From contig DATDYF010000037.1 of NCBI GenBank assembly GCA_035289105.1, forward strand, positions 6,418 to 70,417: DNA of 64,000 bases, given 5' to 3'. Shown here piece by piece: positions 923 through 58,852 of the stretch. The translations under genes and the position numbers were made by a program. Position 1 is the first letter of the stretch. Every line of letters starts with the position of its first letter. The notes under the pieces were generated by a model, which ran no database searches, was not told where the DNA came from, and saw nothing but the letters and a program-made list of their open reading frames with translations. This DNA comes from Candidatus Nanoarchaeia archaeon. GTDB taxonomy: Archaea; Nanobdellota; Nanobdellia; Woesearchaeales; JACQSR01.

Positions 923-3355
923 ATGGTAAGGATACGCTTTTTTCCCTTCGATGTAACATACAGGATTGTGGACGACAAGGCAGTAATACACCTGTACGGC
1001 CGAACTGCAGATGGAAATGACATCTGCATTATTGACGACAATTTCAGGCCATATTTTTATGTTTTTTCTGGAGATTTGGAGAAGGCAAAGTTAAAAATCG
1101 AGCAATTGAAGGTTGAGCGGGAGAGGATTGTAGCATTTGTTACCGGCTCCGAAATTGTTAAAAAGAGATATATGGGAAAGGATGTTAAGGCTCTAAAGGT
1201 TTACACAAATATTCCGGGAGCTGTTCCAATCATTAAAGATACTGTAAGGCAATGGAGTTTTATCGACTCTGTTCATGAATACGACATTCTTTTTGGGCGC
1301 AGGTATCTCATTGACAAGGGGATAATCCCTTTTTTATCCTATGAAGTTGAGGGTGACTTTGCTGCGGTTAAGTCGAAAGTGCCTGTTTTCAGGGCTGAGA
1401 GCATAGAGCAGCGCAGCGAGGATGTTCTTGAGGGGCCAAGGATTCTTTCATTCGACATAGAAACGTATTACAGCGAACGCGAGATAATGCCTGAGAAATT
1501 CCCGATTATCATGCTTGCATTTTACGGCCAGAATTTTAGGAAAGTCTTCACATGGAAAAGGTTTAGCACATCCGACGATAGCATAGAATTTGTTGAATCG
1601 GAAGCCGAGCTGCTTGAAAAGTTCAGGGAAACTATAGAGCATTACAAGCCCGAAATCATCACAGGATACTTTTCCGATGGATTTGATTTCCCGTACATTG
1701 AAAGCCGGGCTAGAAAATACAAGATAAAGCTGGATTTGGGTTTGGATTACAGCGAGCTTAGAATTAACAGAAAAGGGGATGTAGATGCAAAGATAACTGG
1801 AATCAACCACGTTGATGTATTCCGGTACATTCAGCGTATTATGGGGAGGTCTTTGGAGACAGACTCTTACAGCCTTGATGCCGTTTCATTCGAGCTTCTT
1901 GGCGAGAAAAAGCTGGATGTTAATCTCGACGAGATGTCGAAGGCTTGGGACGAGGGCAGCCAAGAGATAGAGAAATACTGCCGCTACAATCTTCATGATG
2001 CAAAGCTAACCTATGAGCTATGCAACAAGCTTCTGCCGAATATGGTAGAGCTTGTCAAAATAATTGGGCTCCCAATCGACGATGTCATCAGGATGGGCTT
2101 TTCTCAGCTTGTTGAATTGTATCTTTTAAGGCAGGCACCCAGGTTCAACGAGATTGCTCCAAACAGGCCGGAGCACGAGGATATAAACAGGCGCAGGGAA
2201 GACACATACAAGGGGGCATTTGTGTTTGAGCCAAAGCCGGGCTTATACAAAAATATTGCGGTGTTTGATTTCAGAAGCCTTTATCCAAGCATAATAAGCT
2301 CCCACAACATTTCATCTGCTACTTTGAATTGCAGTTGCTGCGGGGATGAGAAAGTTCCGTTGGAGGGGAAAGAATACTGGTTTTGCAGGAAGGAAAAGGG
2401 TTTCCTGCCATCGGTAATTGGCGACCTTATCGAGCACAGGGTGCGGATAAAAGAAATGGTAAGAAAGCAGAAAGATGTGCTCCTCACGGCAAGGGAGAAT
2501 GTGCTTAAATTGCTGGCAAACTCGTTTTACGGCTACTTTGGGTTTTTCGGAGCTCGATGGTATTCACTCGAGTCTGCACAGTCAACAACTGCATATGGCA
2601 GATTTTATATACATAAGGTAATTGACAAAGCAGAAAAGGAGGGCTTTACGGTTTTGTATTCTGACACAGATTCGATATTTTTGCTTCTCGACAGGAAAAC
2701 AAAAGTTGACGCAGAAAAATTCATGGAGTCTATAAACCTCGAGCTTCCGGGGCTGATGGAGCTTGAATATGAAGGTTTATATCCTTCCGGAATATTTGTG
2801 CCGACAAAGGAAGGGACCGCGGGCGCAAAAAAGAAATATGCGATGATTTCTGAGAATGGAATTTTGAAAATCCGCGGGTTCGAGACGGTAAGGAGAAACT
2901 GGAGCCTTGTTGCAAAGGAGCTTCAGGAAAATGTGCTAAGGGTCATTCTTCAGGAAGGAGATATAGATAAGGCATACAATCTGGCAAAGCAGACGATAAG
3001 AGATTTGCGGGAGAAGAAAATTGCCATGGAGAAAGTCATCATCAAAACGCAAATAACAAAGGAAGTTGGGAGCTACGAGGCAATAGGGCCCCATGTCGCA
3101 ATTGCACAAAGGCTTGAGATGCAGGGCAAGAAGGTTGAGCCGGGCTCCATAATTAGTTACATAGTTACTGAATATGGAGCTAAAATTAGGGACAAGGCGA
3201 AGCTTCCAGAGGAGGTTAAAGAAGGAGAATATGATGCTGAGTATTATATTAATAATCAGGTGATACCGGCCATTGAGAAGATTTTTGAGGTTCTTGGGTA
3301 TTCAAAGGGGGCCATTGAGGGCAGGGAACAGGGCACCTTGGGAAGATTTTTTTAA
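923..3355 (+). CDS. polB: Family B DNA polymerase (archaeal PolB)
   Basis: Exo I motif FDIET. Motif A DFRSLYPSII. Motif B KLLANSFYGYFG. Motif C LYSDTDS. Length 810 aa. Confidence 0.93.
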   Translation: MVRIRFFPFDVTYRIVDDKAVIHLYGRTADGNDICIIDDNFRPYFYVFSGDLEKAKLKIEQLKVERERIVAFVTGSEIVKKRYMGKDVKALKVYTNIPGAVPIIKDTVRQWSFIDSVHEYDILFGRRYLIDKGIIPFLSYEVEGDFAAVKSKVPVFRAESIEQRSEDVLEGPRILSFDIETYYSEREIMPEKFPIIMLAFYGQNFRKVFTWKRFSTSDDSIEFVESEAELLEKFRETIEHYKPEIITGYFSDGFDFPYIESRARKYKIKLDLGLDYSELRINRKGDVDAKITGINHVDVFRYIQRIMGRSLETDSYSLDAVSFELLGEKKLDVNLDEMSKAWDEGSQEIEKYCRYNLHDAKLTYELCNKLLPNMVELVKIIGLPIDDVIRMGFSQLVELYLLRQAPRFNEIAPNRPEHEDINRRREDTYKGAFVFEPKPGLYKNIAVFDFRSLYPSIISSHNISSATLNCSCCGDEKVPLEGKEYWFCRKEKGFLPSVIGDLIEHRVRIKEMVRKQKDVLLTARENVLKLLANSFYGYFGFFGARWYSLESAQSTTAYGRFYIHKVIDKAEKEGFTVLYSDTDSIFLLLDRKTKVDAEKFMESINLELPGLMELEYEGLYPSGIFVPTKEGTAGAKKKYAMISENGILKIRGFETVRRNWSLVAKELQENVLRVILQEGDIDKAYNLAKQTIRDLREKKIAMEKVIIKTQITKEVGSYEAIGPHVAIAQRLEMQGKKVEPGSIISYIVTEYGAKIRDKAKLPEEVKEGEYDAEYYINNQVIPAIEKIFEVLGYSKGAIEGREQGTLGRFF

Positions 3356-3396
3356 GGCAAGCTTAATAAATCAAATATCTACCTCCTTATCTGAAT

Positions 3397-3602
3397 GTGC
3401 CTGTAGCGCAGCCTGGATTTAATACAGAAAGCGCGGCTGCCTCCTAATGAACGCAGAGTTCAAAAGAAAGCAGCAGGTCCGGGGTTCGAACGCAAGGGAC
3501 TGCACCCTTCGCACACCTGCAGTCAAGTGGCATCTACGATGCCACGAACTTTTGGTGATGAGAGAAATATGCAATCCCTTAACGAAAGTCCTCGCAGGCA
3601 CG
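3397..3602 (+). tRNA. tRNA-Arg(CCU) with multiple introns. Includes a canonical 37/38-region intron (about 22 nt) and a non-canonical T-loop (59/60) intron of about 98 nt. The D-loop region is unusually long.
   Basis: Acceptor stem GTGCCTG/CAGGCAC (7 bp perfect). U8 A9 present, D-stem GCGC with 'AGCCTGG' D-loop. Anticodon stem GCTGC (3436-40) pairs with GCAGC (3470-74). Loop is C-U-CCU-A. Variable loop AGGTC. T-stem CGGGG/CCTCG with TTCGAA...T loop split by the intron at 3491-3588. Discriminator G, then TTTTTTT (3603-3609). Confidence 0.55.
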
Positions 3603-3649
3603 TTTTTTTCTCCCAAACAATTAAAAACCAGAACATATTCCCCTTCTTT

Positions 3650-3985
3650 ATGGAAGAGAAGAAATCAGATATTTTAATCGCGCTTCATAGGATTTTTGAG
3701 GGAAAGCCGGATGCTTACTTAAGTACGAAAGAGGCGGGTATTCACTTATACATTTTTCCTTATAGACATGAGGTAGTTGTTGGAGGGGTAAAAATAGACC
3801 TTCAAGAGACGTTCCAGTTAAATGATAATTATGCATTTGTTGTTATGGGCGGTGATAAAATGATTATGGGGGGGCATCTGGAGATGGACCCAACTAACAT
3901 CGAAGGGTACGCAAAAAGAGTAGAAGCGGAGTTATTGGGGGAAGGATTTAACGGAATTGAAGTAATTCTGCAAAAACCGGATTGA
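3650..3985 (+). CDS. Hypothetical protein (112 aa)
   Basis: Start moved to an internal ATG because the upstream part of ORF 3527.. overlaps the tRNA intron. No recognisable family. Confidence 0.45.
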   Translation: MEEKKSDILIALHRIFEGKPDAYLSTKEAGIHLYIFPYRHEVVVGGVKIDLQETFQLNDNYAFVVMGGDKMIMGGHLEMDPTNIEGYAKRVEAELLGEGFNGIEVILQKPD

Positions 3986-3989
3986 AATT

Positions 3990-4784
3990 CTATGCAATTC
4001 CCTTCAGCAAAAACCCAACCAGATAAGCAACTCCTGCCGCAAGTCCGCCTACAATCAGCATCTCCAATCCCGATTTCCACCATTCTATGTGCGTTACGTA
4101 AGAGCGGAATGCCCCGACAATGAATAAGACAATGAAAGTTAAGATTATTGAGGTAATGAAAGCGTAAGCAAGGAAAGAAGGGAATGCTATTGACAGGACA
4201 AAGGGAAGCAAAGGGGTAAAGCCTGCAATAACAAATGCAAAAAAGGTTGAAGATGCGCTCTTGATGGGAGTTTTTGTCTCTTCGATTAATCCAAGCTCCT
4301 CGCTCATCATTGTGTCCAGCCAGACCTTCTTGTTTGAGGTGATGATTTTAACAAGCCTGTCTAAGTTCTTTCCCTTGAATCCTTTCTTGGCATAGACTCC
4401 GCGGATTTCCGCTATTTCGCCTTTGGGGTAATTTTCAACCTCCCATTCTTCCCTGCTTCTTTCCCTCTTGTAGAAATCAGACTCTGATTTTGTGCTTAGG
4501 TAATTTCCAATCGCCATTGATATGCCGTCGCCAAAGAGGTTTGCAAATCCCAAAATGAGAACAATTGCAGATGAGAGAGAAGCGCCTGCCACTCCAGAAA
4601 CAACTGCAAAAGTAGTAATAATGCCATCTAACGCCCCATAAACCAAATCCCCAATATATCTGCCGCCTCTCCTGTGCTCCTCGAGATGCCTTTTAATTGC
4701 GGCTTCTGTATGCGCAGATTTTGCCTCCCGGATATCCTTCTTCAGAAACGCCTCTCTTGCCTTTTCAAGCCTTTCGGTGAGCAT
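3990..4784 (-). CDS. VIT1/CCC1-family iron/manganese transporter
   Basis: Motif 'GALDGIITTFAVVSG'. C-terminal polytopic TM region. Length 264 aa. Confidence 0.85.
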   Translation of the reverse strand: MLTERLEKAREAFLKKDIREAKSAHTEAAIKRHLEEHRRGGRYIGDLVYGALDGIITTFAVVSGVAGASLSSAIVLILGFANLFGDGISMAIGNYLSTKSESDFYKRERSREEWEVENYPKGEIAEIRGVYAKKGFKGKNLDRLVKIITSNKKVWLDTMMSEELGLIEETKTPIKSASSTFFAFVIAGFTPLLPFVLSIAFPSFLAYAFITSIILTFIVLFIVGAFRSYVTHIEWWKSGLEMLIVGGLAAGVAYLVGFLLKGIA

Positions 4785-22460: not shown

Positions 22461-22608
22461 TTTTCCACTAGTCTGGGACTAGTGGCAAGCATTGCTTCAT
22501 CATAATTCGAGAGCTGAAAATTCTGAGCATGCTCAAGAACCACCGGTCTTGCAAGGGAGTAATTGCGTTCGCAACATTCCACCGGTCTATGACCGGTGGT
22601 TCTTGACA
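22461..22608. mobile_element. MITE/PATE-like palindromic element, copy 1. Hairpin CCACTAGTC-tgg-GACTAGTGG at the left. Internal box CAAGAACCACCGGTC. Hairpin CCACCGGTC-tat-GACCGGTGG plus GGTTCTTGACA at the right.
   Basis: Same architecture and near-identical right end as the approximately 140-bp insertion at 53812-53953 that disrupts relE. Confidence 0.42.
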
Positions 22609-22661
22609 GAAGTGCAGATTCTGCCACAAATCTTTTTAAACAATCAACGAACAAACTAAGC

Positions 22662-25161: not shown

Positions 25162-25437
25162 ATGGCACGAAAAAACGATTATGACTGGATAAAAATAGTT
25201 GCCTTGTTCATATCGGTTGTTGTGGTGCTAATCATAGCAATAAGCATACGGAATGGGCTAACATCGGATAATATACTTTCAGGGGCAATTACCTTTAAGG
25301 GGCCCAACCCCCATTTATATACTGGACCTAATCCTTTCGGGGAACCTGTTGATATGGAAGCAGCTGTTGCTAGTTATTGTGGCAAAGGTATCTTAGATGC
25401 GGCCCTTGAGGCAAATATTTGTGGAGTGCCACAATGA
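25162..25437 (+). CDS. Small membrane-anchored protein (91 aa). Overlaps the start of the giant gene.
   Basis: Starts 'MARK' within 'aaaatggcacgaaaaa'. The same start context 'aaaatggcacggaaaa' recurs at the giant gene. One TM helix. Confidence 0.42.
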   Translation: MARKNDYDWIKIVALFISVVVVLIIAISIRNGLTSDNILSGAITFKGPNPHLYTGPNPFGEPVDMEAAVASYCGKGILDAALEANICGVPQ

Positions 25438-28400
25438 AAATGGCACGGAAAATAAGGATTTTGTTGCTCGTTTCTTTGATTACCATCATTTCGGCATTTA
25501 GCGCATCAGCAGCAGACTGCGGAAATGGCATCAAGGATTGCGAATGCGGGGATACTGTTGTAGCAGATTATACGTTTAGCTCTGACCTTGTCTGCGACGG
25601 CTCTTCAGGCCCTGTTAGCGGCCTTGTTGTGGGGAGCGATGTGCAGTTGAGCTGTGCTCCTGATGTTAAGATTGAGTGTGCTCCTGGAGTCAAGGATGGA
25701 GGGTCTTGCGAAACTGGAATTTCTATTTCTGCCAGCAACGATATAAGCATAACAGGCTGCACAATCATCGGATGGGATCGCGGAGTAAGGATAGGCAGCG
25801 GCTCTAGCAACATCAATATTACCCTAAACAAAATCTTGCACAACATTCAAGGCATTTTGGTTACGGGAGCCGGAAATAACATCACAATCAGTTATAACAC
25901 TGTATCAGGAAATGGGGTTGAATCTTCCCCTGGGGAAGGAGGGGTTTTGGGAAATTGCGGCGATGGAATAGACAATGATGCAGACACACAAGTGGATTGC
26001 GCGGACAGCGAATGCTCTTTTGATGTCCTGTGCGGAGGGCCTGGGCAGGGATACTTCGGCGGCAGCATCATGGTCTTGACTGTCCACGGCCAGGACAATA
26101 TCCAAATCATCGGGAACACAATTAACGACACTTTTGTATTCGAAAACAGGGGCGCCATTCATATCGGAGGCAGTAATGGCAATATTTCCAATCTTGTAAT
26201 CAGCAACAACACTATATATAATGTTCCCCTCTTCCCGGGAATATCTTTCTCCTTTGTCGGGATTATCAATTTGACGATAAGCAACAACTCGTTAACCAAT
26301 GTCGGAATAGGACTTGGATTTGGTTTTGCTGCGCCAGTTGAAAATGGCATCATCTCGGGAAACAGCGTGACCTGTTCAGGATTGAGTGCTACTCTTGGAG
26401 ATATCGGCATGATGGTAGCGGGAACAGCGGATGTCACCGGTAATATGGTTAATGACTGCGACATAGGCATATTTGCTACATTCGCAGGTCTTGCCCCGGG
26501 ATTTGTGCCCTCTCCAATATCCATTGACGCAAACACAGTAACTTCAAATTTCGGCACTGGAATCTGCACAGACATAGCCTTTGCCACTCTTGAAAACAAC
26601 GTGATATCCAATGGCATTATTGGAATTGCAGACCTCCTTGAGGAGTTTGACCCCGGCAACTGGCAGTCTGGAATAACAATACTCTTTAACTCTTATGCCG
26701 CTGTCCAGAAGGAAATATGCCGGGTTAGATCGCCTCTTGTTGGAGGATGCTTGCAGTTTGCAGAAGACGCATTGGCCGGAACGGTTAATCTGGATGCTTT
26801 GTGCGGTACAGGAGAGCCGCCGTTCTTTTGCCCTATTCAATTTAATTTCATTGTTGGCGGGCAGTTGTATGATGCTCCGGGAGGGGTTGTATATGTTTTC
26901 AAAGAATCAGAAGCCCAGGCTTGCGGCATAGACACCAGCGACGGTGTCCAGGATTATGAGTCGGGTTTGCCTTTCGGCTGTCAGGCTATAACTCAGACTT
27001 GGACTTGCAATGGAATTGCTGGTGGAACATGCAGCATAACGTTAGGTGATCCAGGGCCGGCAGGATATGTTGCGATTGCTTTCGATCATCCTCCAGGCTC
27101 ACAACCGCCGCCTAGTGTAGCTGGTGCTGCCGTATTCGGCGAATCATTATGCGGGGGCCAAGTTGATATCAATGAATTTGGCGGGGAAACCAACTGCGGA
27201 GACGGCATAGACAACGACAATGATGGAAGAATTGATTGCCAGGATGGTGATTGCCAGGGGTCTCCAAGTTGCCCAGGCTGTGTAGTTACCATGAACTGGG
27301 TTGACGAAAACCAACAGCCAGTTAATGCGCCATATGGGAATATTTTATTGCTTTCCTACGATGAAATTAACAATGATTGCGGTATCGACCTCAGTCAGGG
27401 AGTTACTACGGACATCTTCCAGGTATTCGGAAACCCATGTATTACCCAGGTACAAATTTGCGGATTATTCAGCGGAGAATCATTGTCAGACGGGCAATGC
27501 GTCAGCCAGGTTAACATAGCCGCTGGCGACCAAATTGTTGCAGTTGCAATTGGCTCTTTTGGCGCTGAGGAAATCCAGAGTGTGCAGGATTCATGCGAAA
27601 ACGGCTTGGATGATGACGGCAATAACCTTGTAGATTGTGCTGACCCGGCTTGCGCCCCTGCAAGGAATTGCGGACCTTCAAACTCCTTGGTTGGAGGGGG
27701 AATATTTGGGCCACAGGCATGCGGAGGCTCAGCAACAATCGGTCCCCTTGGAGGTCCAGAAGGGTGCCCTCTCACGTTTACTGCATTTGGTGAAAACAAC
27801 AACCCAGTTCCTGACGGTTCGTATATATTTACCTTGGAAACAGCTGTTATTAGCACCATTCCCTACGAATCACCTCAAGGATCGGGCAATTTTATCCTGA
27901 TAGATCCTTCAGATGGCATCGACTTTGATGAATGGTTTGGATTGCTCATCGCAGCTCAAAATGGGCCTCCGCCTGGATTAGACGGTGGGTGTATCTCGCC
28001 CCAAGGCCAGCCAATCCCAACCAGTGGCGGAACCTGTCAGGGAAGTTTAGGGGAACTTTTCCCCGGGAATCCTAATGCACCACACACCGTGGTTGTGCTC
28101 TACGATGACTTTATGAATCCAACACAAATAATTTCACAGAACTATAACTTCCTTACTTGTGGTGGACAGGTTATTATTGGAGAAAGCGGTCCTGAAGTTG
28201 GCGATTGTACAATTACCTATAGCTTTGTCGATGGCCAATCGCAGCCTATCGATGCTCCGAATGGAGGGGTTGTCATATTTAGCCAGAACGCGCTGCAGGC
28301 ATGCGTTGGTACATTTCCGCCCCCGGAGCCAGGAGAAGAGGATTGCAATGCTATCTTTAATCCGTCAGATGGGGTCATGGGCGGTGAAATTAGATGCGCC

Positions 28401-31400
28401 TTTACCTGCCCCGGTGCAAATGTAGGTACCTGTCCCATTAATCTATTTCAGGGAACTCCTGGAATTCCAGGTGGAAGCTGTACCTCCACTATTCTTGGTT
28501 CAGCAAGTCCCGATTACATGATAGCAATTGCTTTGGATACATTTAGTGGGCCGCCTAGCCTTTTTGGCACAGCAACCTTTACAGATGCTGAGTGCGGAAC
28601 AGAGATAATTCCTGGCCAGGTTACGATAGTGGCCGTAGGCGGACCCCCTCCAGGTGCGCTTCAGGTGCTTGTCCTGGAAGGTTCAAACCCCCCAGTAAGC
28701 CCGCCAGGTGCAATAGTCCTTGCCTTTGACGCCACTCAGCTTGAGGCCTTTTTGGGAACTGCTGTTCCTTATGATTTGTCTCCCACGCAGATGCAGAATT
28801 TATTTGCAGATTTAGACCTTGGGCCGGGAGCCGGACAATCTGGCTTTATAGGCGGATGTTTCGGCGAACAGGGGCCTTCACCAACAGGTGCAAATGGCAT
28901 GTGTGATTTGTCATTATTCTTCGGAGATCCAACAGGCCCTGTTGTTGTATTGGCATTCTTGAATTTAGATTTTCAGGCGCCAGATCCTAATTTTATTAAG
29001 ACAAGAGGAGTATACATCGATGGGCCGCCGCCCTCTCCAATCACCATCATCTTCCCCGCCCTTAACCTTTTTGTAGAGAGCGTTACTGCTGCCTCGCCAA
29101 TGGTCTCAGTTACTGCAGGGGCAACAGATGACACAATTGCATACCTTACCCTTTTCGATGGAAGTCCATTCGCCGGTGCAATCCGTATTGAAACAAGGGC
29201 AGTTGCCTTAAGGGTAAATGCTCCAATAACGGAAGTATTTGAAGTGCCGGACAGCCCCTCCACAACCGGAGGAAGCCTTCATGCATTCTTTGCGCAGGTT
29301 TCACCGATTAACGACCTCTTCCCGCAGGATAATGTAAAAGCAGAGGTAAGGCCAAGCATCCTGGCATCTGTAACTAGCAGCAGCAGCACAAAATCCAACT
29401 CTGTCCGTGATTTCTCCTTCACAACAAGTGTTGATGATTACGTTCCTTCCGCAGCCGATTCATTGGTTATCATCGTTCCTGATTTCGGCAAGAGCAAAGC
29501 AGATTATAGCGCCATTGCAGAAAAGCTTGCGCAATCAGAAAAACGGGTATTTGTCATTGACCCTGTTGGGTATAAGGGAACAACCAGTACGGTAACCACC
29601 AGCGACCCCCTCTTCAAAGGGAACAACCTCCGAAAATGGAAAGAGAAGGACCGATTATTGCCTATTTCTGCACAGTTGTGCGCTCTTATTCCTCAATTGA
29701 AGGCCGAAACTGGCCTTGCCAGTGCAACAATCATCGGGGATGGCATGGGCGGGGCAATAGTTAACACCCCGGAATTGGTCTGTTCAGCGCAGGCAAATGC
29801 TTTGGTTTCTACGGGGGCTTACTGCAAGCCGGTCACTTTCAGCGAAGGCGGCCCAAAATCCGCTGTTCCGTATTTCAATCTTAAGGACGGAAAAACCCCA
29901 TGTGAACTGCCCCCTTCATCAGTGCCCTCTTTGGTTTTGCAAGGTGATGAAGAGAAGCCGCAGGGGGATTTGTGGTTCTTCAAGTTCAAGAACAAGAAGC
30001 CAGTTACCTACGGCCTTATCCAGGGCGCCCAAGATTCATTCATAACAAACAGTTTCGCCGGAACACCGGAGTTTGATAATGCAGAGATATACATCAAATC
30101 CTTTATCGAAAAGGAGACAGGCGGTGCATATACTCAGTTGGAGAACGACCTTAACTTGAGGCCGGAGCTTGTCCATCTTTTATTGGAAGATGTCAGGGCA
30201 AATGATGATGCGGTAAAGCCCAAAGACACTCTTGTTTCCAATGATGGCTTCAATCTTTTCGCCATTGAAAGCGCAGACTTAAGCAGCACCCCCACAGGAT
30301 GGGCTGTTGGCTCTGTTGTGGATATCGAAGATGTCAAGGACGACTTTGCCAACTTCATGACCAACGCCCTGAAAATCAGCGCAGGCGAAGCAACTCAAAA
30401 GGTATTTGTTAAGGGAAGCTTTGAAAATCCCGATTCAGGCCAGCTTGTTTTGAACTACAAGGTTCTTGCCCCAAGCACCAACCCGGTTGACAGCTCCGCA
30501 AAACTAAGGCTGGACTTCAAAGACATGCAAGGCAACTCGCTTGCCTGCATTGAATTCCATTCCACAAACCTTCCGGTAAGTTCCACATGCAGCTTTGCCA
30601 TTGCGGTCTCCTCAGGAAACGACGGCAGGATACAGGAGATAAGCAACATCCCAGTCTCCGAGATACTAAAGTCTGTTGGGGCCTTCACAACCAAGATATT
30701 CTCAGTTGACATCGAAATCAGTTCTGACAGTCCCTTTTATTATGATGATGTCGAACTCCTGCTTGAAGAAGATGTTTTGGAGGTGAATGAAGCAGACTTT
30801 TTGGATTTAACTTCTCACACAGCCACCTTCACATCGCCAATTATAAACATAAATGCGGGAGAGCAATTAACATCCATCCTGCCCCTGTTCGTGGCAGAAG
30901 ATGGCGCATCAATTACCGCTGATGTTCTTGATGAATTTGATATTCCCATAATTTCAGGAATTGAGCTTAATTCTGCAGCTAATCTTATGGCATTCCACGA
31001 AACGCTCAAGGGGCTGGATTCATTAAAAGTGCGGTTCAACCTTGATCCGGGAGTTACGCTGTACAAATACTATGTTGTTGCCAAGCCTGTTGATGTGTTT
31101 GATACAAACATTAATGGGGTGGAGGTAAACTCGCTCTTGCTTGACGAGCAGGGCTCCCATTCCGATTACAGCGTTGCATTTAACCTGAACAACCCTGGTG
31201 ACTTTGACTTAATTTCAGCCGGGGAAACATTAAGCTCCGATGCCATCTCATTCGGTGTTGGTGAAATCTACAATCGCGTGGTAAAAACGGATAATTCAAT
31301 CACAAGGAGCGATGCTAATAATGGAATCACTGAAACCGATGTTAGTAGCTCATCAGGCACTGTTGATTCATTTATAACCTTGTTTGATTCGAGTGTCGAT

Positions 31401-34400
31401 ACGATAACCCAGGATATTAACTTTGGGGCTGGGTGCCATGTTGAGGTGGATGATGTCGTAATGACATCGGCTTTCACAACCAACAAGCTTATAGATATTG
31501 TATGCCCTAATGAAGAATTTACACTGACGCCCTTTTACGGCGCTTCAAATATAGAGTTGAATGAAGTAAAGGTAGACCCTGTCGATGCTACAAAAGACAC
31601 TGTAGGGGATTTGGACAAGCTGGAGGTAAGGGATGACAGCGCACTTACGAAAACAGCCGGAGAGTCTGTTCTTGAGGAAGGATATGACTTTTCCTTGCTC
31701 CAGGACTTCCTGCAAAATGACATTTATCAGTTCCTCCTGGATAACGGAATAAACGATTCGCTTACCCAGTTTTTCAAAAATCAGCTGGATAAGTCAGCAG
31801 ATGGTGTACTCAAGAGAGACCAGGTTTTAGAAACTGCATTCCTTGGCTTGTTGGGCGGGGATAATAATTTCTCAACAATAATGGATACTGAAGTGCAGTT
31901 CACGGCTACAGGCATCAGGCTTATCACAAGGACACAGGGAAATTCAATATTGTCCAGAACCATTGGCATTTCAAGCTCATTAAACTCAGACAGGTTTTCA
32001 ATAAAGGGGCCTGGATTGGCAGAAGGCAAATGCACCTCAACAAGGGCAATCGTCCTGGAATCTAGCCTGATTACGCCTAAAGGCCTTTCTGTCTCGGATT
32101 GCGTTGATATTTTTGTAAGGGGAGAATCAAAGGACCTGGCACAGGACGTTAACAGCATTGACCAGCTTGCAAAAGAAGCCGTTAGCCCAAGGCTTGATAA
32201 GGAAATGGTTGATACTGTGCTTGATTCAGCCAAAGATAACGTAACGCCCAGGCGCGGCGTTATCTCAATAGGCGGCAGCTTTGACATGAGGGATTCAACA
32301 ATATCCGCCTTGGATGACTTGGGCTTTATTGGAATCTCTGTTGCCGGAAACAGCTTTGTTGAAAACTCTGAAGTTTTGGACTTCCAATACTTTCAAAGTT
32401 CAGCGGGATGCAATTTCATTGGCTCAGTATTTGAAAGCAGCGCAATTGACCTTCTTGAGGAGGAAAATAGGAATGCGGCAGAGAACAGAAACAGCGAACA
32501 GCTGGACTTCGCCAGGCAATTCCACGGCGTTTCATGCTCAAGTGTTGATACCGGGCCTGCCAATGCCTTGGACCAAAGCCCCTCAGGCAATTATAAGCCT
32601 TCAGATGTTGCCACAAGCAGCGTAGCTGAGGCCACGCTGAAGATATTTGAGATGGACGACCCTTGTGTTTTGAGTGTGGCAGAGGGAGGCAGTGTTTGCG
32701 ATAAAGTCCTTGCTGACTTGAATGCAAGGGATGTGCCGATAACCATAAGGTCATTTGGCGAGGCAGCAGACCAGCTTAACTTGGCAGATATTGCATTTAA
32801 CCAGGATCTTACTAATATCAAGGTGTCCGAAATTGGAAAAATCCCAAGTTCATTATCCTCCATTACATTCAAGGGCATACCATTAGACCAGATTATGGCA
32901 ACAGACATTCTTGACGAAATAAACAACAATCAAAAAATTGACGAGGTTAACGCCATAAGGACTAATATAGAAAACACAGGGATAGACAATAACGCTGATG
33001 AATTGCTGACGGAGGGCGAGGAGATAGCGCAGCCCGGCCTGCTCGATGCAAATTTAGCTCCAGTCTCGTACAGCGGCTTAATGGTTGAAACACCGGTAGA
33101 AGACCTTGATGTTTGCCTGTTAAGCCTGCCTGACGGAACCGGCATATGCGATGTCCGCATAGACCAGGACACCATAATTGAGGATTTGGGCATAACCTTG
33201 TGCGGCCTGAAAAGAAATGGAGTCAGCATATGCAATATTATAACTGATGACCTGAATGATAACCCCACTTTAGATACAGTGGGATATGAGGCAGAGTACC
33301 AGGTTTCAAAGAACGGCGATGTTGACGTATCAGAGCTTTCATTGGGGGATTTGGCTATCGGCGACAGGGGCGATTCTGTGCCGTTTACTGCATTGGACAC
33401 CTCAATCAATAATGTAAAGTTCTGTGACCTCCAGCTTGAAGGGGTCTCCGTTTGCAATGTAGTTGCAGGCAAAACAGCTGTGGAGCAGGCAACTGACTTT
33501 ACAGGATTGGATGCCTTCGACATTATTCAGAAGCTGGAAAATATTCCCGACATCAGGGAATCTGATTACACTGGCTCCTTTGATTACCTTATGGAGAATC
33601 TTAACTTCTGCGCAAATTATGCTGGTTATATTGACGCTGAATTAAGGAAAGAGAATAATCTCGATTACCTGAGGGTTGATAAGTCATTTAAGTTCGGAAA
33701 TGTGGCCAAGCTCCACATCGATGGCATGTGCAGTGTTCAGTTGGACCAAACAAGCCTGTGCGATTTGGAAGGAAACGATGTATACGGGCCCGTCATACAA
33801 AATTCAGCGGCCATAAGCGATTCCTGCAATAATGCTGCTGGAGACTTTGGGTCATGCGTAACAAACCTCAAGGAGCTTAATTCATGCCAGCTGACAATAG
33901 GCGGAGTTTCGGTATGCAGCGTGGAGGTTTCAAAAGGGCTCATTAACGACCAAACTGTTTATGCCGGATTTAACATAACCAAGCTGCAAATTAATGGGCT
34001 TTGCGCGCTGGCTTACAAGGGAATAAGCATTTGCGACACTTCAATAGATAAGGTGTTCAACTTTACAGAATCCCAGGGCACGCTTGAAGCAGCTACCGGC
34101 GAAGAATTGATATCTGCGTGCGACCTGACCTTTAACGGCATTAACCTGTGTTCTGGCCATCAATTTGATGATGAGTTCTGCGACCAGGCAAAAATAGACG
34201 GCGTAAGCGTATGCAACAGCAGATGGGACAACAGGCTTGTTGATGATGAACTAATCACCGAAGCTGCGCAGGGCCAGGTATTTAATGATGCCCGAGATGG
34301 AGGAACATTCGGCGATGAGCAAAAACAAAGGCTTCTAAGGCCGAGCGTTTGCGACTTGGAGATAAATGGCACCACATTGTGCGATGCCGTTGCTCTAGTA

Positions 34401-37400
34401 ACATTTACCAACACAGTGCTGCCTGGCGAATCACCTGCAGACTTTGTATTGGACCACACCGTACTTGAGTTTGTTAGTATGGATGAAACCAAGGTTAACC
34501 TTCTATTGATAGAGCTCGGGGAGAAATGCAATGAGCTGTTTATCAATGTAACTGATATCATCAACAAAACAATACCTAACATAGAGCATAAGGGAGTTCC
34601 GCTGTCAGAAATGACTTTATGCGATGATGTTGAAATCAATGGCTTAAGCCTGTGCGATGCCAATTTAGTATTGATAAACGATAGCGACATCCTTGATGTG
34701 GTGCTAAATGGGGATGTTGTAGGCCAGATGGATTTAAGGGCCCTCCTCACAAACCTCGTCTTTGCCTTAACTTATGATGTAGGTGGAGAAACATTCAATG
34801 ATGCGACTGGAACAATAGGGGACATATTGGACCTGAGGGAAGTAAGGCTTGGCTCTTCCAACCTTCTCGATAACGTGCTCCTTTCTTCCAATTCCATAAG
34901 GAATAGCGAAGTTGATGTGCTGACAAGGCTATTTATGGATTACTCAATAGGCACCCTCTCGAAACCGCAAAGGACTCTAACATTCGACAATAAGAAGGCA
35001 ATTGAAGTGTTGGATATAACATTAAACTCTTATGACCAATTCAACCTGGATTGCGCTATAGCGAAGGAGATTCAGAGCAAGGTAGATTTGGAGGGCACTG
35101 AAATTGATTCTCCGATAAGCAAGGTTGAGTTGTGCGATGTGTTTGGCATTCCTACACCCTTAAGCAATGCGCAATTTGGAATCAGCTCCTACTCACCGCC
35201 TATTGGAAGTCTTAAGGAGGGCAGCCTAACGGTTAATCTTAACAGCGTAGAGTTTAGCGATTTCACTCTTGAAACGCTGTATAACCTTACTGAGTTCGAT
35301 TCAGAAACATGTGATATTCACAACAATGAATTTACGGATGCAGCTGTATCAATCAATTGCGAATTAAGCGCAACGGGAAATAACTTCTTTGGCAAGGACC
35401 TTAGCGATGGCGGTGACTTAATCCTTGGGTCGCCTGGCGCATTAGTAGTAGCTGTACCGGATGATGACGATAAAGTTGAAATATCCGGAAACAGGTTTAA
35501 TTTCAACCACATGGGAGGCCCTGGATTGGTGGGCGCAGCAGAAGTTGATGTATCTAAAAACGATTTCGTGGACCCATTGTTTAACGCACAATACATAACT
35601 GATTCCAGGAATTATCTGGAGCAGTTCATTGTAAAAGAGAACCTCGACACTGTAGATATAAACGACAACGTGCTTGTTGATAGAGTTGAAAGCAGGATAA
35701 GCAGGGATGAAGCCAAGGAGCTCGCTAATACCGCTGACAAATACAATCTTGTTGACGACAGGTATGCGGATTTAGCTTCGGATAGGTCAGAAATAGCAGA
35801 GCTTAATAGGGCATTAAGCCAGCTTAATGATATAGACATTGAAAGCATCCAGCTGACAAATGAAATTGCCGATATGTTTGGCATAGATATATCGAGAGTT
35901 GAAACATTGCTTAATAGGGAATTAACACCGATAGATATTTCAAACCTCGATGTGGATAACACCCTAAATATAGAGAGGAATTACTACAGGGGCTTTAACA
36001 GTGTTAGGGCATATTTGCCCGAGCTAATAATCCCGGGAAATCTCAACTTTGCTACAGAGACCTCAGTGTTTATTTATCCAAAGAAGCGCGTATCCTTCGT
36101 TGGCAACGCCATCGTTGACAATCCGCCTATAAAAATAAAATCAAAAGAGGCGATTGACATCTCTAAGGTATTATTGCTGAATAACTTCAGGGCTGGCTGT
36201 GAAATTGATGATGCAGCCGGCATGAGAAACTGCGCCGATGTTGAGTTATCAACCATGGCGGAACCGCCAGAGATTTCAGGTGCAACCGCTGCGTCATTGG
36301 ATAGGGATGAGGATACTGTGCCTAACCATGTTGACAACTGCCCATTCACCCCAAATACTGGCCAGGAAGACACGGACTTTGACACTTTAGGGGATATGTG
36401 CGATAACTGCGATGATTTCAACCCTGACCAGTTTGACAGGGACCTTGATGGGATTGGAGATGTATGTGATAATGATAGGGATGGCGACGGCATTGCCAAT
36501 CCGGCAGATGCCTGCCCAAATGCCTTCGATCCGGGCAATTCAGCGGAAATATGCAGTGGTTGTGTTGATTTGGATGCAGATACATTCTACGCCTTTGATG
36601 CGGATGAATGCACTGGGGGCAATGACTGTGATGACAGCAACGCAGCAGCAAACATCTTTAGATTGGAGGCATGCAATAATCTGGATGACAATTGTAACGG
36701 CCAAACTGACGAATCCGTGCTCCAGAGATGCGGTGCTAGCGATGTAGGAGAATGTACTTTTGGAGTTGAAGCTTGCTCAGCAGGAAGCTACATTGGATGC
36801 ACTGCAATATTGCCCACTGCAGAGGTTTGCGATGGCTTGGATAATGATTGCGATGCAATAGTGGATGAAGGGATTGCTCCACAGCAGTGCGAAGTTACTG
36901 ATGCTGGAGAATGCAGATTTGGATTAAGGAGCTGTGAAGGAGGCGCATTCAGTTCTTGTGTGGGCAACATTGATCCAGTAGCAGAGATATGCGATAGCCT
37001 TGACAATGATTGTGATGGGCAAGCAGATGAAAGCGCTGCAGGCGGAGACCTTACAGAGGTTTGTGGCACAGATGTAGGCGCATGCCAAACTGGCGTGAGA
37101 ACGTGCTCTGCAGGAGGATTTGGAGTATGTGTGGGAGAAATTGCTCCCGTAGGGGAGACATCCTTGGCCTGCAACAACATAGATGATAACTGCAATGGAG
37201 TAATAGACGATGGTTATGATAGGGATGATGATGGCTTTACGAGCTGTGATACGCCAAAACCAGACTGCAACGACAACGATCGGTCAATTAATCCGGATGC
37301 GCCTGAAAGATGCAACGATGGCATAGACAACAACTGTGATGGCAAAGTAGACTTTGGCGATACAGTTAACTGCCCTGCTGCCGATAAGGTATCTGTTGAG

Positions 37401-53494: not shown

Positions 53495-53734
53495 ATGGCT
53501 GCAACTACGATTAAAATTTACGAAGAAACAAAACACGACTTGGACGAGTTTAGGGAATACAAAAACGAAAGTTACGACGAGGTCATTAAAAAAATCGTTT
53601 ACATCGCAAAGGCCTCAAAAAAAGAGCCTAAGCTGAGCAAAGAAGCCATGGAATCCATAGAAAAGGCCCGGGCAAGAATAAGGGCAGGCAGATTTATTAC
53701 CGAAGAGGAAGCCAGGAAGAGGCTTGGATTTTAA
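53495..53734 (+). CDS. RelB/ribbon-helix-helix-type antitoxin
   Basis: 79-aa ORF MAATTIKIYEETKHDL.. with C-terminus 'ARARIRAGRFITEEEARKRLGF'. Its stop overlaps the ATG of the relE fragment (TAATG). Confidence 0.55.
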   Translation: MAATTIKIYEETKHDLDEFREYKNESYDEVIKKIVYIAKASKKEPKLSKEAMESIEKARARIRAGRFITEEEARKRLGF

Positions 53735-54133
53735 TGTACGCGGTGTTTTTTGATGATAAGGCAATCGAATTTCTCGAAAAACTACCTAAAGAGTTAAGCA
53801 AAAGGATTTATACAATGAAATACCACCATTCTATCTGAATGGCGGTATGAGTTGTGCTCAAAAACCACCAGCTAAGGAATGGCGGTATTTCAAGTGTCAA
53901 AAACTCCGTATCGCTATATAATCATGCCACCAGTCTATTGACTGGTGGTTTTTGACAAGAAGACAGTTTCAGCCAAAGAGAATCCTTTTCATTTTTTTGA
54001 GCGGCTTGAAGGGCGGGGTGATTACAAGCTAAGAGTCGGAGACTACCGGGTAATAGCAGATATCAATCAAAAGGAAAGGATAATTGCAGTAACCCTTATA
54101 GGCCACAGGAAAAATATCTATCAGAAACTTTGA
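53734..54133 (+). pseudogene. relE: RelE/ParE-family toxin gene split by an approximately 140-bp insertion
   Basis: N-terminal fragment (53734-53838) 'MYAVFFDDKAIEFLEKLPKELSKRIY'. C-terminal fragment (53945-54133, different frame) 'ENPFHFFERLEGRGDYKLRVGDYRVIADINQKERIIAVTLIGHRKNIY'. Confidence 0.65.
53812..53953. mobile_element. MITE/PATE-like palindromic element, copy 2, inserted in relE. Hairpin TACCACCATTC-tatct-GAATGGCGGTA at the left. Internal box TCAAAAACCACCAG. Hairpin CCACCAGTC-tatt-GACTGGTGG at the right.
   Basis: Splits the relE ORF with a frame change. Shares hairpin and box consensus and the GGTTyTTGACA end with copy 1 at 22461-22608. Exact termini are uncertain. Confidence 0.45.
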
Positions 54134-58694: not shown

Positions 58695-58852
58695 TGCACC
58701 GGCTGGGACTTTCGACATATGAGCGATTTGGGGGATACGAGCGAAGCGAAGTATCCTCCGATTCTCTTTGCTCATTTCTCGGATACGAGAAATGTTTCGA
58801 ACCCAGGCCAAAAGCTTGGAAGGCTTCTATCCTACCGCTAGACTACCGGTGC
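58695..58852 (-). tRNA. tRNA-Gly(UCC) with an 87-nt non-canonical intron in the T-loop (59/60)
   Basis: Minus-strand read is GCACCGG-TA-GTCT-AGCGGTA-GGAT-A-GAAGC-CTTCCAA-GCTTT-TGGC-CTGGG-TTCGAA-[intron 58709-58795]-T-CCCAG-CCGGTGC-A. Acceptor and T stems are perfect. U33 and A37 are present. Anticodon is UCC. Confidence 0.65.

What the first reader, a model, noticed from the sequence alone, without database searches (positions are those of the whole stretch)
3397..3602. tRNA-Arg(CCU) with up to three introns, including a 98-nt intron in the T-loop
The gene folds as a tRNA only if an approximately 22-nt intron is removed near 37/38 and a 98-nt intron is removed between T-loop positions 59 and 60. 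The D-loop region is also about 10 nt too long. T-loop introns and multiply-interrupted tRNAs are rare, known mainly from Thermoproteales and a few DPANN lineages. The gene ends in G73 plus a T7 tract. Standard tRNA finders would miss it, and the ORF track mis-assigns the interval to three spurious ORFs.
Basis: seen in the sequence. Interest (0 to 1): 0.7.

Follow-up and report, generated by a model that had tools for sequence, protein, structure and literature searches.

The report
Three-intron tRNA-Arg gene in a Woesearchaeon
This is a real but heavily interrupted arginine tRNA gene from a tiny DPANN archaeon; it extends a known archaeal oddity to a lineage where such hidden genes make tRNA sets look incomplete.

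Summary
Window 3397-3602 (+) encodes tRNA-Arg(CCU) in four exon pieces. The interruptions are an 11-nt D-loop insert (3419-3429), a 22-nt intron at 37/38 (3447-3468) and a 98-nt intron at T-loop 59/60 (3491-3588).

After in-silico splicing the product is 75 nt and ARAGORN calls it tRNA-Arg(cct). Unspliced, ARAGORN and Rfam miss it.

The organism is a Woesearchaeota/Nanoarchaeia (DPANN) archaeon. Orthologous genes in relatives settle the case:
- Exons are 97% identical to the closest relative; introns are about 65% identical.
- All 105 stem cells pair, and 9 pairs carry compensatory changes.
- The bulge-helix-bulge (BHB) central helix at 59/60 covaries: TTCG/CGAA versus TTCA/TGAA, TTCA/TGGG and TTCA/TGGA.
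- Intron content differs between relatives. One lacks the D insert. Another has a 65-nt D-loop intron and no T-loop intron.

The same 59/60 intron also interrupts the window's tRNA-Gly(UCC). A tRNA-Lys in a relative carries the same D-loop, 37/38 and 59/60 trio.

The weak points are the 37/38 intron, whose BHB is relaxed, and the 11-nt D insert, which is only probably spliced.

Introns at 20/21 and 59/60, and three-intron tRNAs, are already described in archaea. This is a new member of a known kind.

The parts
3363..3370 (+). TATA-like box TTAATAAA, centred about 30 nt upstream of tRNA position 1
   Evidence: The block aag(c/t)ttaataaat is conserved at the same distance upstream of the orthologous genes in L001 and L034. 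Other relatives have their own A/T box at about -30. Its role as an archaeal promoter is inferred.
3397..3418 (+). Exon 1: acceptor 5' strand, U8 A9, D stem 5' strand, D loop AGCCTGGAT (positions 1-20a)
   Evidence: Identical to L001 and L034 except C17/T.
3419..3429 (+). 11-nt D-loop insert TTAATACAGAA, a probable mini-intron at 20a/21
   Evidence: Absent from the orthologue in L001. Of all registers that leave an 8-11-nt D loop, this one has the best BHB-like geometry: CTGG/ACAG 3/4, 3' AA|A, 5' site inside the hairpin loop. It restores AGCCTGGATA, the D loop of the homologues. The MFE fold shows CUG/CAG flanked by 3x3 unpaired nt. Splicing is not shown.
3430..3446 (+). Exon 2: A21, D stem 3' strand, G26, anticodon stem 5' strand, C32 U33 C34 C35 U36 A37
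3447..3468 (+). 22-nt intron at the canonical 37/38 position (equivalently 3448-3469, because A flanks both ends)
   Evidence: Outer helix is the 5-bp anticodon stem. 3' bulge AA|A, 5' TA|A. Inner hairpin TGAAC/GTTCA is kept as TGGGC/GCTCA in L001. Central helix CTCC/AAAG is only 2/4. L007 and L016 have a perfect CTCC/GGAG BHB at the same site.
3469..3490 (+). Exon 3: A38, anticodon stem 3' strand, variable loop AGGTC, T stem 5' strand, T loop TTCGAA (54-59)
3491..3588 (+). 98-nt intron at T-loop position 59/60
   Evidence: T stem (5 bp) stacks on central helix TTCG 3485-3488 / CGAA 3583-3586 (4/4). 3-nt 3' bulge AG|T at 3587-3589. The 5' site AA|C lies in a 5x2 internal loop. Inner helix AAGGGA 3494-3499 / TCCCTT 3575-3580. 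Orthologues covary: TTCA/TGAA, TTCA/TGGG, TTCA/TGGA. About 65% identical to the L001 intron, against 97% for exons.
3589..3602 (+). Exon 4: U60, T stem 3' strand, acceptor 3' strand, discriminator G73. No encoded CCA.
3603..3609 (+). T7 tract, a likely archaeal transcription terminator
   Evidence: T-rich tracts follow the orthologues too. Function is inferred.
58695..58852 (-). Second gene of the same kind: tRNA-Gly(UCC) with an 87-nt 59/60 intron (58709-58795)
   Evidence: Own scan. BHB has TTCG/CGAA 4/4, 3' bulge AG|T and outer helix 5 bp. The spliced 71-mer is called tRNA-Gly(tcc). ARAGORN's 58781-58852 call and the sub-threshold Rfam hit (24.8 bits against a 29-bit cut-off) borrow intron bases for the 3' half.

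Best explanation
Window 3397-3602 is a functional, single-copy-type tRNA-Arg(CCU) gene of a Woesearchaeota/Nanoarchaeia (DPANN) archaeon, and its coding sequence is interrupted three times.

The inferred pathway is as follows:
- The gene is transcribed from the conserved TATA box at about -30 and terminates at the T7 tract.
- The archaeal tRNA-splicing endonuclease (EndA) cuts at bulge-helix-bulge-type structures that each intron forms with neighbouring exon bases.
- At 59/60, T-loop bases 54-57 pair with the last intron bases before the 3' bulge, stacked on the T stem.
- At 37/38, anticodon-loop bases meet an AAG-NA|A motif above a small hairpin.
- In the D loop, the conserved CCUGG bases pair with CAG of the insert.
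- An RtcB-type ligase joins the exon pieces. RNase P and RNase Z trim the ends, and CCA is added, because none is encoded.
- The product is a canonical 75-nt tRNA.

What is shown: the exon/intron anatomy, the structures, their conservation and covariation, and intron presence or absence among relatives.

What is inferred: actual cleavage and ligation, the enzyme type, and above all removal of the 11-nt D-loop insert. I put about 0.6 on that insert being spliced. Confidence in the 37/38 and 59/60 introns is about 0.9.
For: Spliced product:
- It is 75 nt and ARAGORN calls it tRNA-Arg(cct).
- From the sequence it carries U8, A14, G15-C48, G18 G19, A20, A21, G26, U33, G53-C61, T54-A58 and G73.

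Orthologues:
- Syntenic genes lie downstream of PolB in L001 (80% PolB identity) and L034 (74%). More distant copies are L007, L016 and L019.
- On the spliced alignment, 105 of 105 stem cells pair, 9 pairs have changes on both sides, and 0 of 500 shuffles reach this.
- Exons differ at 2 of 75 positions from L001, while introns are about 65% identical with indels that are not multiples of 3.

The 59/60 BHB:
- 4/4 central helix, 5-bp outer helix and a 3-nt 3' bulge in window Arg, L001, L007, L016, window Gly, L037 Asp and L037 Lys.
- 45 of 45 cells pair, with a G-C to A-U covariation.
- The unconstrained MFE reproduces the structure, z = -4.77.

D-loop introns in the lineage:
- Proper 4/4 helices occur in L034 (65 nt, GCCT/AGGT) and L037 Lys (32 nt, CCTG/CAGG).
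- The best register for the window's 11-mer restores the consensus D loop AGCCTGGATA.

Other support:
- The same sequence is on five other assemblies.
- A conserved TATA box and T tracts are present.
- 20/21 and 59/60 are listed among known archaeal non-canonical intron positions, intron lengths of 11-129 nt are reported (PMC4090602), and up to three introns per archaeal tRNA are known (PMC8450103).
Against: - There are no expression or splice-junction data.
- The 37/38 intron has only 2 of 4 central-helix pairs (C34 and C35 face A) in the window, L001 and L034.
- The 5' site of the 59/60 intron lies in a 5x2 internal loop, not a clean 3-nt bulge.
- The D insert has a 3/4 helix, a 3x3 internal loop instead of a bulge, and its 5' site in a hairpin loop. 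The fold of that arm alone is not significant (z = -1.56). My rough estimate is that this geometry arises by chance in that one register about 2-4% of the time.
- No EndA or RtcB gene lies in the 64-kb window, so the enzyme's specificity class cannot be checked.
- AGG codons could in principle be read by tRNA-Arg(UCU), so the gene is not necessarily essential.
Confidence: 0.82

Rival explanations
1. It is a two-intron tRNA whose 11-nt D-loop insert is not removed. The mature tRNA would carry an enlarged D loop (21 nt), tolerated because the insert sits in the solvent-exposed variable part of the loop (after position 20a).
For: The BHB-like geometry of the insert is weak: 3/4 helix, internal loop instead of a bulge, arm fold z = -1.56. 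G18, G19, A20 and A21 are all kept outside the insert.
Against: ARAGORN cannot fold the product as tRNA-Arg when the insert is kept. None of the homologues has a D loop longer than 10 nt after splicing. Relatives have bona fide BHB introns at this very site. Introns as short as 11 nt are reported for archaea (PMC4090602).
Confidence: 0.1
2. It is a decaying gene. The D-loop insert, a remnant of a longer L034-type intron after internal deletion, can no longer be spliced. The tRNA-Arg(CCU) is on its way to loss, and AGG is read by tRNA-Arg(UCU).
For: The BHBs of the D insert and the 37/38 intron are relaxed. The CCU isoacceptor is dispensable in principle when a UCU isoacceptor exists; L019 shows that relatives have one.
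Against: All 21 stem pairs and all conserved tertiary nucleotides are intact. Promoter box and terminator are intact and conserved. The sequence is identical in six assemblies from different samples. The 2/4 anticodon-intron helix is shared with L001 and L034, so it is an old, maintained state and not fresh decay.
Confidence: 0.07
3. It is not a tRNA: the interval is protein-coding (one of the three overlapping ORFs), another structured ncRNA, or a group I intron-containing gene.
For: ORFs of 65, 76 and 152 aa overlap the interval. The region is strongly structured.
Against: Indels between the window and L001 or L034 (11 nt, 22 vs 23 vs 20 nt, 98 vs 94 nt) break every reading frame. Public gene calls start the downstream gene at window 3650, and that product has no Pfam family. 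Rfam gives only chance-level hits here (E = 5.5 and 9.4) and no group I match. 98 nt is far too short for a group I core (my own knowledge).
Confidence: 0.01

Closest known systems
Multi-intron tRNA genes of Thermoproteales (for example Pyrobaculum islandicum tRNA-Pro(UGG) with introns at 25/26, 37/38 and 56/57; P. calidifontis tRNA-Glu)
   Same: Up to three BHB-type introns in one tRNA gene. One sits at 37/38 and the others in the D and T arms. Splice sites use exon bases as one strand of the central helix. Relaxed hBH/HBh' forms occur (PMC4090602, PMC4390854, PMC8450103).
   Different: The lineage differs (DPANN Woesearchaeota, not Crenarchaeota). The positions are a recurrent trio of D loop 19-21, 37/38 and 59/60. 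The T-loop intron is long (98 nt) and structured. There is no sign of the intron-sequence families that mark intron transposition in Thermoproteales: the Arg and Gly 59/60 introns are unrelated apart from the junctions.
Disrupted tRNA genes of DPANN archaea (ARMAN-2 / Micrarchaeum with epsilon2 EndA; DPANN alpha4 EndA with the L3 loop; Kaneta et al. 2018)
   Same: Same superphylum. That paper links DPANN EndA inserts to more tRNA gene disruption. It also says incomplete tRNA sets in DPANN point to unidentified disrupted genes (PMC5829648).
   Different: That survey held one Woesearchaeota genome, and the text held here does not describe individual genes. The EndA of the present organism is not in the window and could not be typed.
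Canonical archaeal 37/38 BHB intron (strict hBHBh')
   Same: Position, 3-nt bulges TA|A and AA|A, outer 5-bp anticodon stem and an inner hairpin. L007 and L016 orthologues have the strict form, CTCC/GGAG.
   Different: In the window, L001 and L034 the central helix has only C32-G and U33-A. Anticodon bases C34 and C35 face A or U.
tRNA-Trp intron carrying a box C/D guide RNA (Euryarchaeota)
   Same: A long, structured tRNA intron. A C-box-like GTGATGA lies at 3556-3562.
   Different: No D box (CTGA) lies downstream or across the circular junction. The C-box-like motif is not conserved in L001. The intron is in the T loop, not the anticodon loop.

Membership tests
tRNA (cloverleaf, isoacceptor Arg-CCU) | 7-bp acceptor, 4-bp D, 5-bp anticodon and 5-bp T stems, with a 7-nt anticodon loop and a 7-nt T loop after removal of inserts | tested here: met
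   ARAGORN calls the spliced 75-mer tRNA-Arg(cct). 21 of 21 pairs are standard in all five homologues.
tRNA (cloverleaf, isoacceptor Arg-CCU) | Conserved and tertiary nucleotides: U8, A14, G18 G19, A21, U33, G53-C61, T54 Psi55 C56, A58, R15-Y48 | tested here: met
   Read directly from the spliced sequence. All are present. A20 and G73, typical of Arg acceptors by my own knowledge, are also present.
tRNA (cloverleaf, isoacceptor Arg-CCU) | Score above threshold with a tRNA covariance model (Rfam RF00005 or tRNAscan-SE archaeal model) on the mature sequence | not testable with these tools
On genomic DNA there is no hit. tRNAscan-SE is not available.
tRNA (cloverleaf, isoacceptor Arg-CCU) | Expression, aminoacylation with arginine | not testable with these tools
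   No RNA data. Only a conserved TATA box and a T tract are seen.
Archaeal BHB intron: T-loop 59/60 intron (3491-3588) | 4-bp central helix between exon bases just 5' of the 5' site and intron bases just 5' of the 3' site | tested here: met
   TTCG/CGAA 4/4. It covaries in relatives, and 45 of 45 cells pair.
Archaeal BHB intron: T-loop 59/60 intron (3491-3588) | Two 3-nt bulges on opposite strands, each flanked by a helix (hBHBh') | tested here: inconclusive
   The 3' bulge AG|T next to the 5-bp T stem is canonical. The 5' site lies in a 5x2 internal loop before a 6-bp inner helix, which makes this a relaxed hBH-type form.
Archaeal BHB intron: 37/38 intron (3447-3468) | 4-bp central helix that includes the first two anticodon bases | tested here: not met
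   CTCC/AAAG gives 2 of 4 pairs. Bulges, outer stem and inner hairpin are present. It qualifies only as a relaxed motif. The strict form is seen in L007 and L016.
Archaeal BHB intron: D-loop insert (3419-3429) | Central helix plus bulges positioned so that excision restores a normal D loop | tested here: inconclusive
   CTGG/ACAG 3/4, 3' AA|A opposite AGC (3x3 loop), 5' site in the hairpin loop. Excision gives the consensus AGCCTGGATA. The arm fold has z = -1.56.
Archaeal BHB intron (all three) | Cleavage by the tRNA-splicing endonuclease EndA and ligation by RtcB; a broad-specificity EndA encoded in the genome | not testable with these tools
   No tRNA_int_endo or RtcB domain was found among about 50 window ORFs. 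The rest of the genome is not available.
Three-intron archaeal tRNA genes | Three separate inserts at positions already documented for archaeal introns | tested here: met
   About 20/21, 37/38 and 59/60 are all listed in PMC4090602. L037 tRNA-Lys has the same trio with 4/4, 3/4 and 4/4 helices.
Group I intron in a tRNA gene | Catalytic core P3-P9, usually more than 200 nt; match to Rfam Intron_gpI | tested here: not met
   No Rfam match even at E <= 10. The insert is 98 nt.
Box C/D sRNA nested in a tRNA intron | C box RUGAUGA and D box CUGA forming a k-turn, conserved in relatives | tested here: not met
   Only GTGATGA at 3556-3562. No CTGA lies downstream or across the circle junction. The motif is absent from L001.

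The most novel reading that the evidence does not exclude
Woesearchaeales may carry a lineage-wide, so far undescribed expansion of tRNA introns at a fixed trio of sites: D loop 19-21, 37/38 and T loop 59/60. Turnover would be fast even between close relatives, and it would include an 11-nt bulge-helix-loop mini-intron at the lower size limit. This would explain 'missing' tRNAs in DPANN MAGs and implies an EndA with unusually relaxed specificity. The conserved, structured 98-nt 59/60 intron might additionally persist as a functional circular RNA.
Probability: 0.35. Interest if true: 0.6.

Novelty: new member of a known kind. Interest (0 to 1): 0.45.

Why it matters
Standard finders miss this gene entirely, and they mis-call the window's second tRNA (tRNA-Gly). 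DPANN genomes are often reported to lack tRNAs, and that apparent lack feeds arguments about host dependence and genome completeness. Hidden multi-intron genes like this one are a concrete explanation, and one already suspected in the literature (PMC5829648).

The set of close relatives with different intron content also gives a clean natural series for studying intron gain, loss and shrinkage:
- D insert of 0, 11 or 65 nt.
- T-loop intron present or absent.
- Central-helix covariation that also changes the mature T loop at position 57.

The same series can be used to test how relaxed a DPANN splicing endonuclease can be.

Tried and rejected
- ARAGORN with intron mode, run on the genomic interval, found nothing.
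- Rfam at gathering and E-value thresholds gave no tRNA hit at 3397-3602, only chance-level ncS025 and snoZ40 matches.
- The metagenome scan with the middle exon returned mostly bacterial tRNA-Ala and other unrelated tRNAs. Only L007, L016 and L019 were useful.
- PolB synteny beyond about 74% identity is lost. L035, L036 and L037 have no tRNA-Arg directly downstream of PolB, although L037 yielded other intron-bearing tRNAs.
- A loose BHB scan (4/4 helix, outer helix >= 2 bp) gives many spurious sites. Only those with a 5-bp outer helix are meaningful.
- Alternative splice registers for the anticodon-loop insert either break the anticodon stem or change the anticodon (for example to CCA). None gives a better BHB (own reasoning).
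- I looked for a box C/D RNA in the 98-nt intron. There is no D box and the C-box-like motif is not conserved.
- I looked for sequence relatedness between the Arg and Gly 59/60 introns, which would suggest intron transposition. There is none beyond the junction bases.
- I looked for EndA and RtcB in the window. Neither is present.
- The supplement of PMC5829648 is not held.

Full report
**What is in the sequence**

Window 3397-3602 (+) lies in the 294-nt gap between the stop of a family-B DNA polymerase gene (923-3355) and the next called gene, which starts at 3650. Reading the DNA gives these parts:
- Acceptor GTGCCTG 3397-3403 / CAGGCAC 3595-3601.
- U8 A9.
- D stem GCGC 3406-3409 / GCGC 3431-3434 around a 21-nt loop.
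- G26.
- Anticodon stem GCTGC 3436-3440 / GCAGC 3470-3474 around CTCCTA + 22 nt + A.
- Variable loop AGGTC.
- T stem CGGGG 3480-3484 / CCTCG 3590-3594 around TTCGAA + 98 nt + T.
- G73 at 3602, then T7 at 3603-3609.

ARAGORN finds nothing here. Rfam finds nothing either, even at E <= 10. Three ORFs of 65, 76 and 152 aa overlap the interval.

**Organism**

The flanking PolB is 80% identical to that of a Woesearchaeota MAG (JACQSR010000031, locus L001). NCBI names the identical protein 'Candidatus Nanoarchaeia archaeon'. GatD/GatE, CDC48 and PPDK in the window fit an archaeon. The exact 206-nt tRNA sequence is present on five other independently assembled contigs (L028-L032). A sixth, shorter contig (L033) carries its first 152 nt and then ends. 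It is therefore not an assembly error.

**Is it a tRNA?**

Removing 3419-3429, 3447-3468 and 3491-3588 gives a 75-nt sequence that ARAGORN calls tRNA-Arg(cct). By direct reading it has U8, A14, G15-C48, G18 G19, A20, A21, G26, U33, G53-C61, T54-A58 and G73.

The unconstrained MFE fold of the unspliced 206 nt already contains the acceptor, D, anticodon and T stems (-77.8 kcal/mol, z = -4.77, 0 of 200 shuffles).

Homologous genes were recovered in three ways:
- By synteny downstream of PolB: L001 at 4548-4739, and L034 at 3650-3809 (GCA_023255615.1, PolB 74% identical).
- By a metagenome scan with the middle exon: L007 and L016 (CCU) and L019 (UCU).

After splicing, all of these are 75 nt and are called tRNA-Arg. 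On the five distinct spliced sequences, 105 of 105 stem cells form standard pairs. Nine pairs carry changes on both sides, for example anticodon stem GCTGC/GCAGC versus GAGCA/TGCTC in L034. None of 500 shuffles, and no slid register, comes close.

Against L001, exons differ at 2 of 75 positions. The introns are about 65% identical, with indels that are not multiples of three. That pattern is what a tRNA gene with introns predicts, and it rules out a coding reading.

A block aag(c/t)ttaataaat is conserved about 30 nt upstream in the window, L001 and L034. T tracts follow each of these three genes. Both observations fit an archaeal promoter and terminator, though that role is inferred.

**The T-loop intron (3491-3588, position 59/60)**

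I used the archaeal rule as restated in PMC4090602: a 4-bp central helix flanked by two 3-nt bulges, with the exon bases just upstream of the 5' site forming one strand of the helix. Under that rule:
- T54-R57 (TTCG, 3485-3488) pair 4/4 with CGAA (3583-3586).
- This helix stacks directly on the 5-bp T stem.
- The 3' site lies in a clean 3-nt bulge, AG|T (3587-3589).
- The 5' site AA|C lies in a 5x2 internal loop, followed by a 6-bp inner helix AAGGGA/TCCCTT.

This is a relaxed hBH-type motif, not a perfect hBHBh'. The same architecture is found in six other genes:

| Gene | Central helix |
|---|---|
| L001 Arg | TTCA/TGAA |
| L007 Arg | TTCA/TGGG |
| L016 Arg | TTCA/TGGA |
| Window tRNA-Gly | TTCG/CGAA |
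| L037 Asp | TTCA/TGAA |
| L037 Lys | TTCG/CGAA |

In the five-row junction alignment (the L037 genes are not included) all 45 cells pair. The R57 pair switches G-C to A-U on both sides. That covariation links a mature T-loop base to an intron base, which only makes sense if the helix is functional.

L034 has no T-loop intron and a normal TTCGAAT loop. The insert is therefore dispensable for the tRNA itself, as expected of an intron.

**The 37/38 intron (3447-3468)**

Present:
- The anticodon stem as a 5-bp outer helix.
- 3-nt bulges TA|A and AA|A.
- An inner hairpin TGAAC/GTTCA, preserved as TGGGC/GCTCA in L001 and TGAAC/GTTCA in L034.

Weak: the central helix CTCC/AAAG has only two pairs, and C34 and C35 face A. 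The same weak helix occurs in L001 and L034, so it is a maintained state. L007 and L016 have the strict CTCC/GGAG form at the same site. Position and intron status are therefore secure, but strict BHB membership is not met.

**The D-loop insert (3419-3429)**

The homologues' spliced D loops are AGCYTGGAYA (10 nt). The window has 21 nt. L001, the closest relative, has no insert at all (AGCTTGGATA).

L034 has a 65-nt intron after AGCCTGG with a 4/4 helix GCCT/AGGT, bulges GG|C and AA|A, and a 3-bp inner helix. L037 tRNA-Lys has a 32-nt D-loop intron with CCTG/CAGG 4/4. So this lineage does place BHB introns here, using the conserved GCCUGG of the D loop as the exon strand.

For the window I enumerated every register that leaves an 8-11-nt loop. 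The best one removes TTAATACAGAA. It has helix CTGG/ACAG at 3/4, a 3' AA|A next to the D stem but opposite AGC, and a 5' site inside the hairpin loop. It restores exactly AGCCTGGATA.

That agreement is suggestive but statistically weak:
- My estimate is about 2-4% by chance for that single register.
- The arm fold has z = -1.56.

An intron length of 11 nt is the lower bound reported for archaeal tRNA introns (PMC4090602). I rate splicing of this insert at about 0.6. The alternatives are a tolerated enlarged D loop or incipient gene decay.

**Wider pattern (found in passing)**

A simple acceptor plus T-arm scan showed that the window's only ARAGORN tRNA, Gly(UCC) at 58781-58852 (-), is really 58695-58852. 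It carries an 87-nt 59/60 intron (58709-58795). ARAGORN and the sub-threshold Rfam hit (24.8 bits, below the 29-bit cut-off) had used intron bases as the 3' half.

The same scan on relatives' loci found two more genes in L037 (Woesearchaeota GCA_019322485.1):
- A tRNA-Asp(GUC) with a 32-nt 59/60 intron.
- A tRNA-Lys(UUU) with three introns, in the D loop at 20/21, at 37/38 and at 59/60.

So the trio of sites recurs in different isoacceptors of this order. The Arg and Gly 59/60 introns share nothing beyond the junction bases, so there is no sign of recent intron transposition.

**Comparison with what is known**

- Non-canonical archaeal tRNA introns at 20/21 and 59/60 are listed in PMC4090602.
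- Up to three introns per gene are known, chiefly in Thermoproteales (PMC4390854, PMC8450103).
- Kaneta et al. 2018 (PMC5829648) tie DPANN EndA loop inserts to increased tRNA gene disruption. They note that incomplete tRNA sets in DPANN imply undetected disrupted genes. Their survey included one Woesearchaeota genome.

The finding is therefore a new, well-supported member of a known kind, in a lineage where individual cases are barely documented. No EndA or RtcB gene is in the window, so the enzyme class could not be tested.

**Rejected alternatives**

- Group I intron: no Rfam match, and the insert is only 98 nt.
- Box C/D guide in the 98-nt intron: GTGATGA at 3556-3562 has no D box and is not conserved in L001.
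- Protein coding: frame-breaking indels between relatives.
- Another ncRNA: only chance-level Rfam hits.

**Verdict**

- Confidence is about 0.9 that this is a genuine tRNA-Arg(CCU) gene with introns at 37/38 and 59/60.
- Confidence is about 0.6 that the 11-nt D-loop insert is a third, minimal intron.
- Interest is moderate. It is not surprising to a specialist in archaeal tRNA. It is useful for DPANN tRNA annotation, and as a natural series for intron gain and loss and for EndA specificity.

Noticed in passing
window 58695-58852 (-): The tRNA-Gly(UCC) that ARAGORN reports as 58781-58852 is really a 158-nt gene with an 87-nt T-loop 59/60 intron (58709-58795; TTCG/CGAA, AG|T). The spliced 71-mer is a clean tRNA-Gly. 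The automatic call and the 24.8-bit Rfam hit use intron bases as a false 3' half.
   Followed up: yes
L037 4623-4729 and 4761-4922 (Woesearchaeota GCA_019322485.1, JAHWIK010000022): Two adjacent tRNA genes that ARAGORN misses. One is tRNA-Asp(GUC) with a 32-nt 59/60 intron. The other is tRNA-Lys(UUU) with three introns: D loop 20/21 at 32 nt, 37/38 at 21 nt, and 59/60 at 35 nt.
   Followed up: yes
L034 3650-3809 and L001 4548-4739: Intron presence or absence varies between close relatives of the same tRNA-Arg gene. The D-loop intron is 65 nt (L034), 11 nt (window) or 0 nt (L001). The T-loop intron is absent in L034 and present in the window and L001. This suggests rapid intron gain, loss or shrinkage.
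   Followed up: partly
window 53734-54132 (+), and 22575-22612: A RelE/ParE-like toxin ORF is split into two reading frames (MYAVFFDDKAIEFLEKLPKELSKRIYT... / ...ENPFHFFERLEGRGDYKLRVGDYRVIADINQKERIIAVTLIGHRKNIYQKL). The break is a hairpin-rich insert of about 150 nt (about 53815-53960). A 40-nt stretch that is 85% identical lies at 22575-22612. It could be a small mobile repeat or another kind of insert.
   Followed up: partly
window 3556-3562: A C-box-like GTGATGA lies inside the 98-nt T-loop intron. No D box accompanies it and the motif is not conserved in L001. Other parts of the intron (helices GACTGC/GCAGTC and GTGGCAT/ATGCCAC) are conserved with compensatory changes between the window and L001.
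   Followed up: partly
window 25419-38453 (+): A single ORF of 4344 aa with higher G+C (about 0.49 against about 0.42 around it). It was not analysed. The gene truncated at the window start (65-889), upstream of PolB, is a large Ig/cadherin-like repeat surface protein.
   Followed up: no
anticodon-loop introns of window Arg, L001, L034, L019 and L037 Lys: The 37/38 introns of different tRNAs in this lineage end in a shared motif, (A/T)AAG-NA|A, whatever the anticodon. As a result the central helix is only 2/4 or 3/4 paired. This hints at a lineage-specific relaxed recognition rule.
   Followed up: partly
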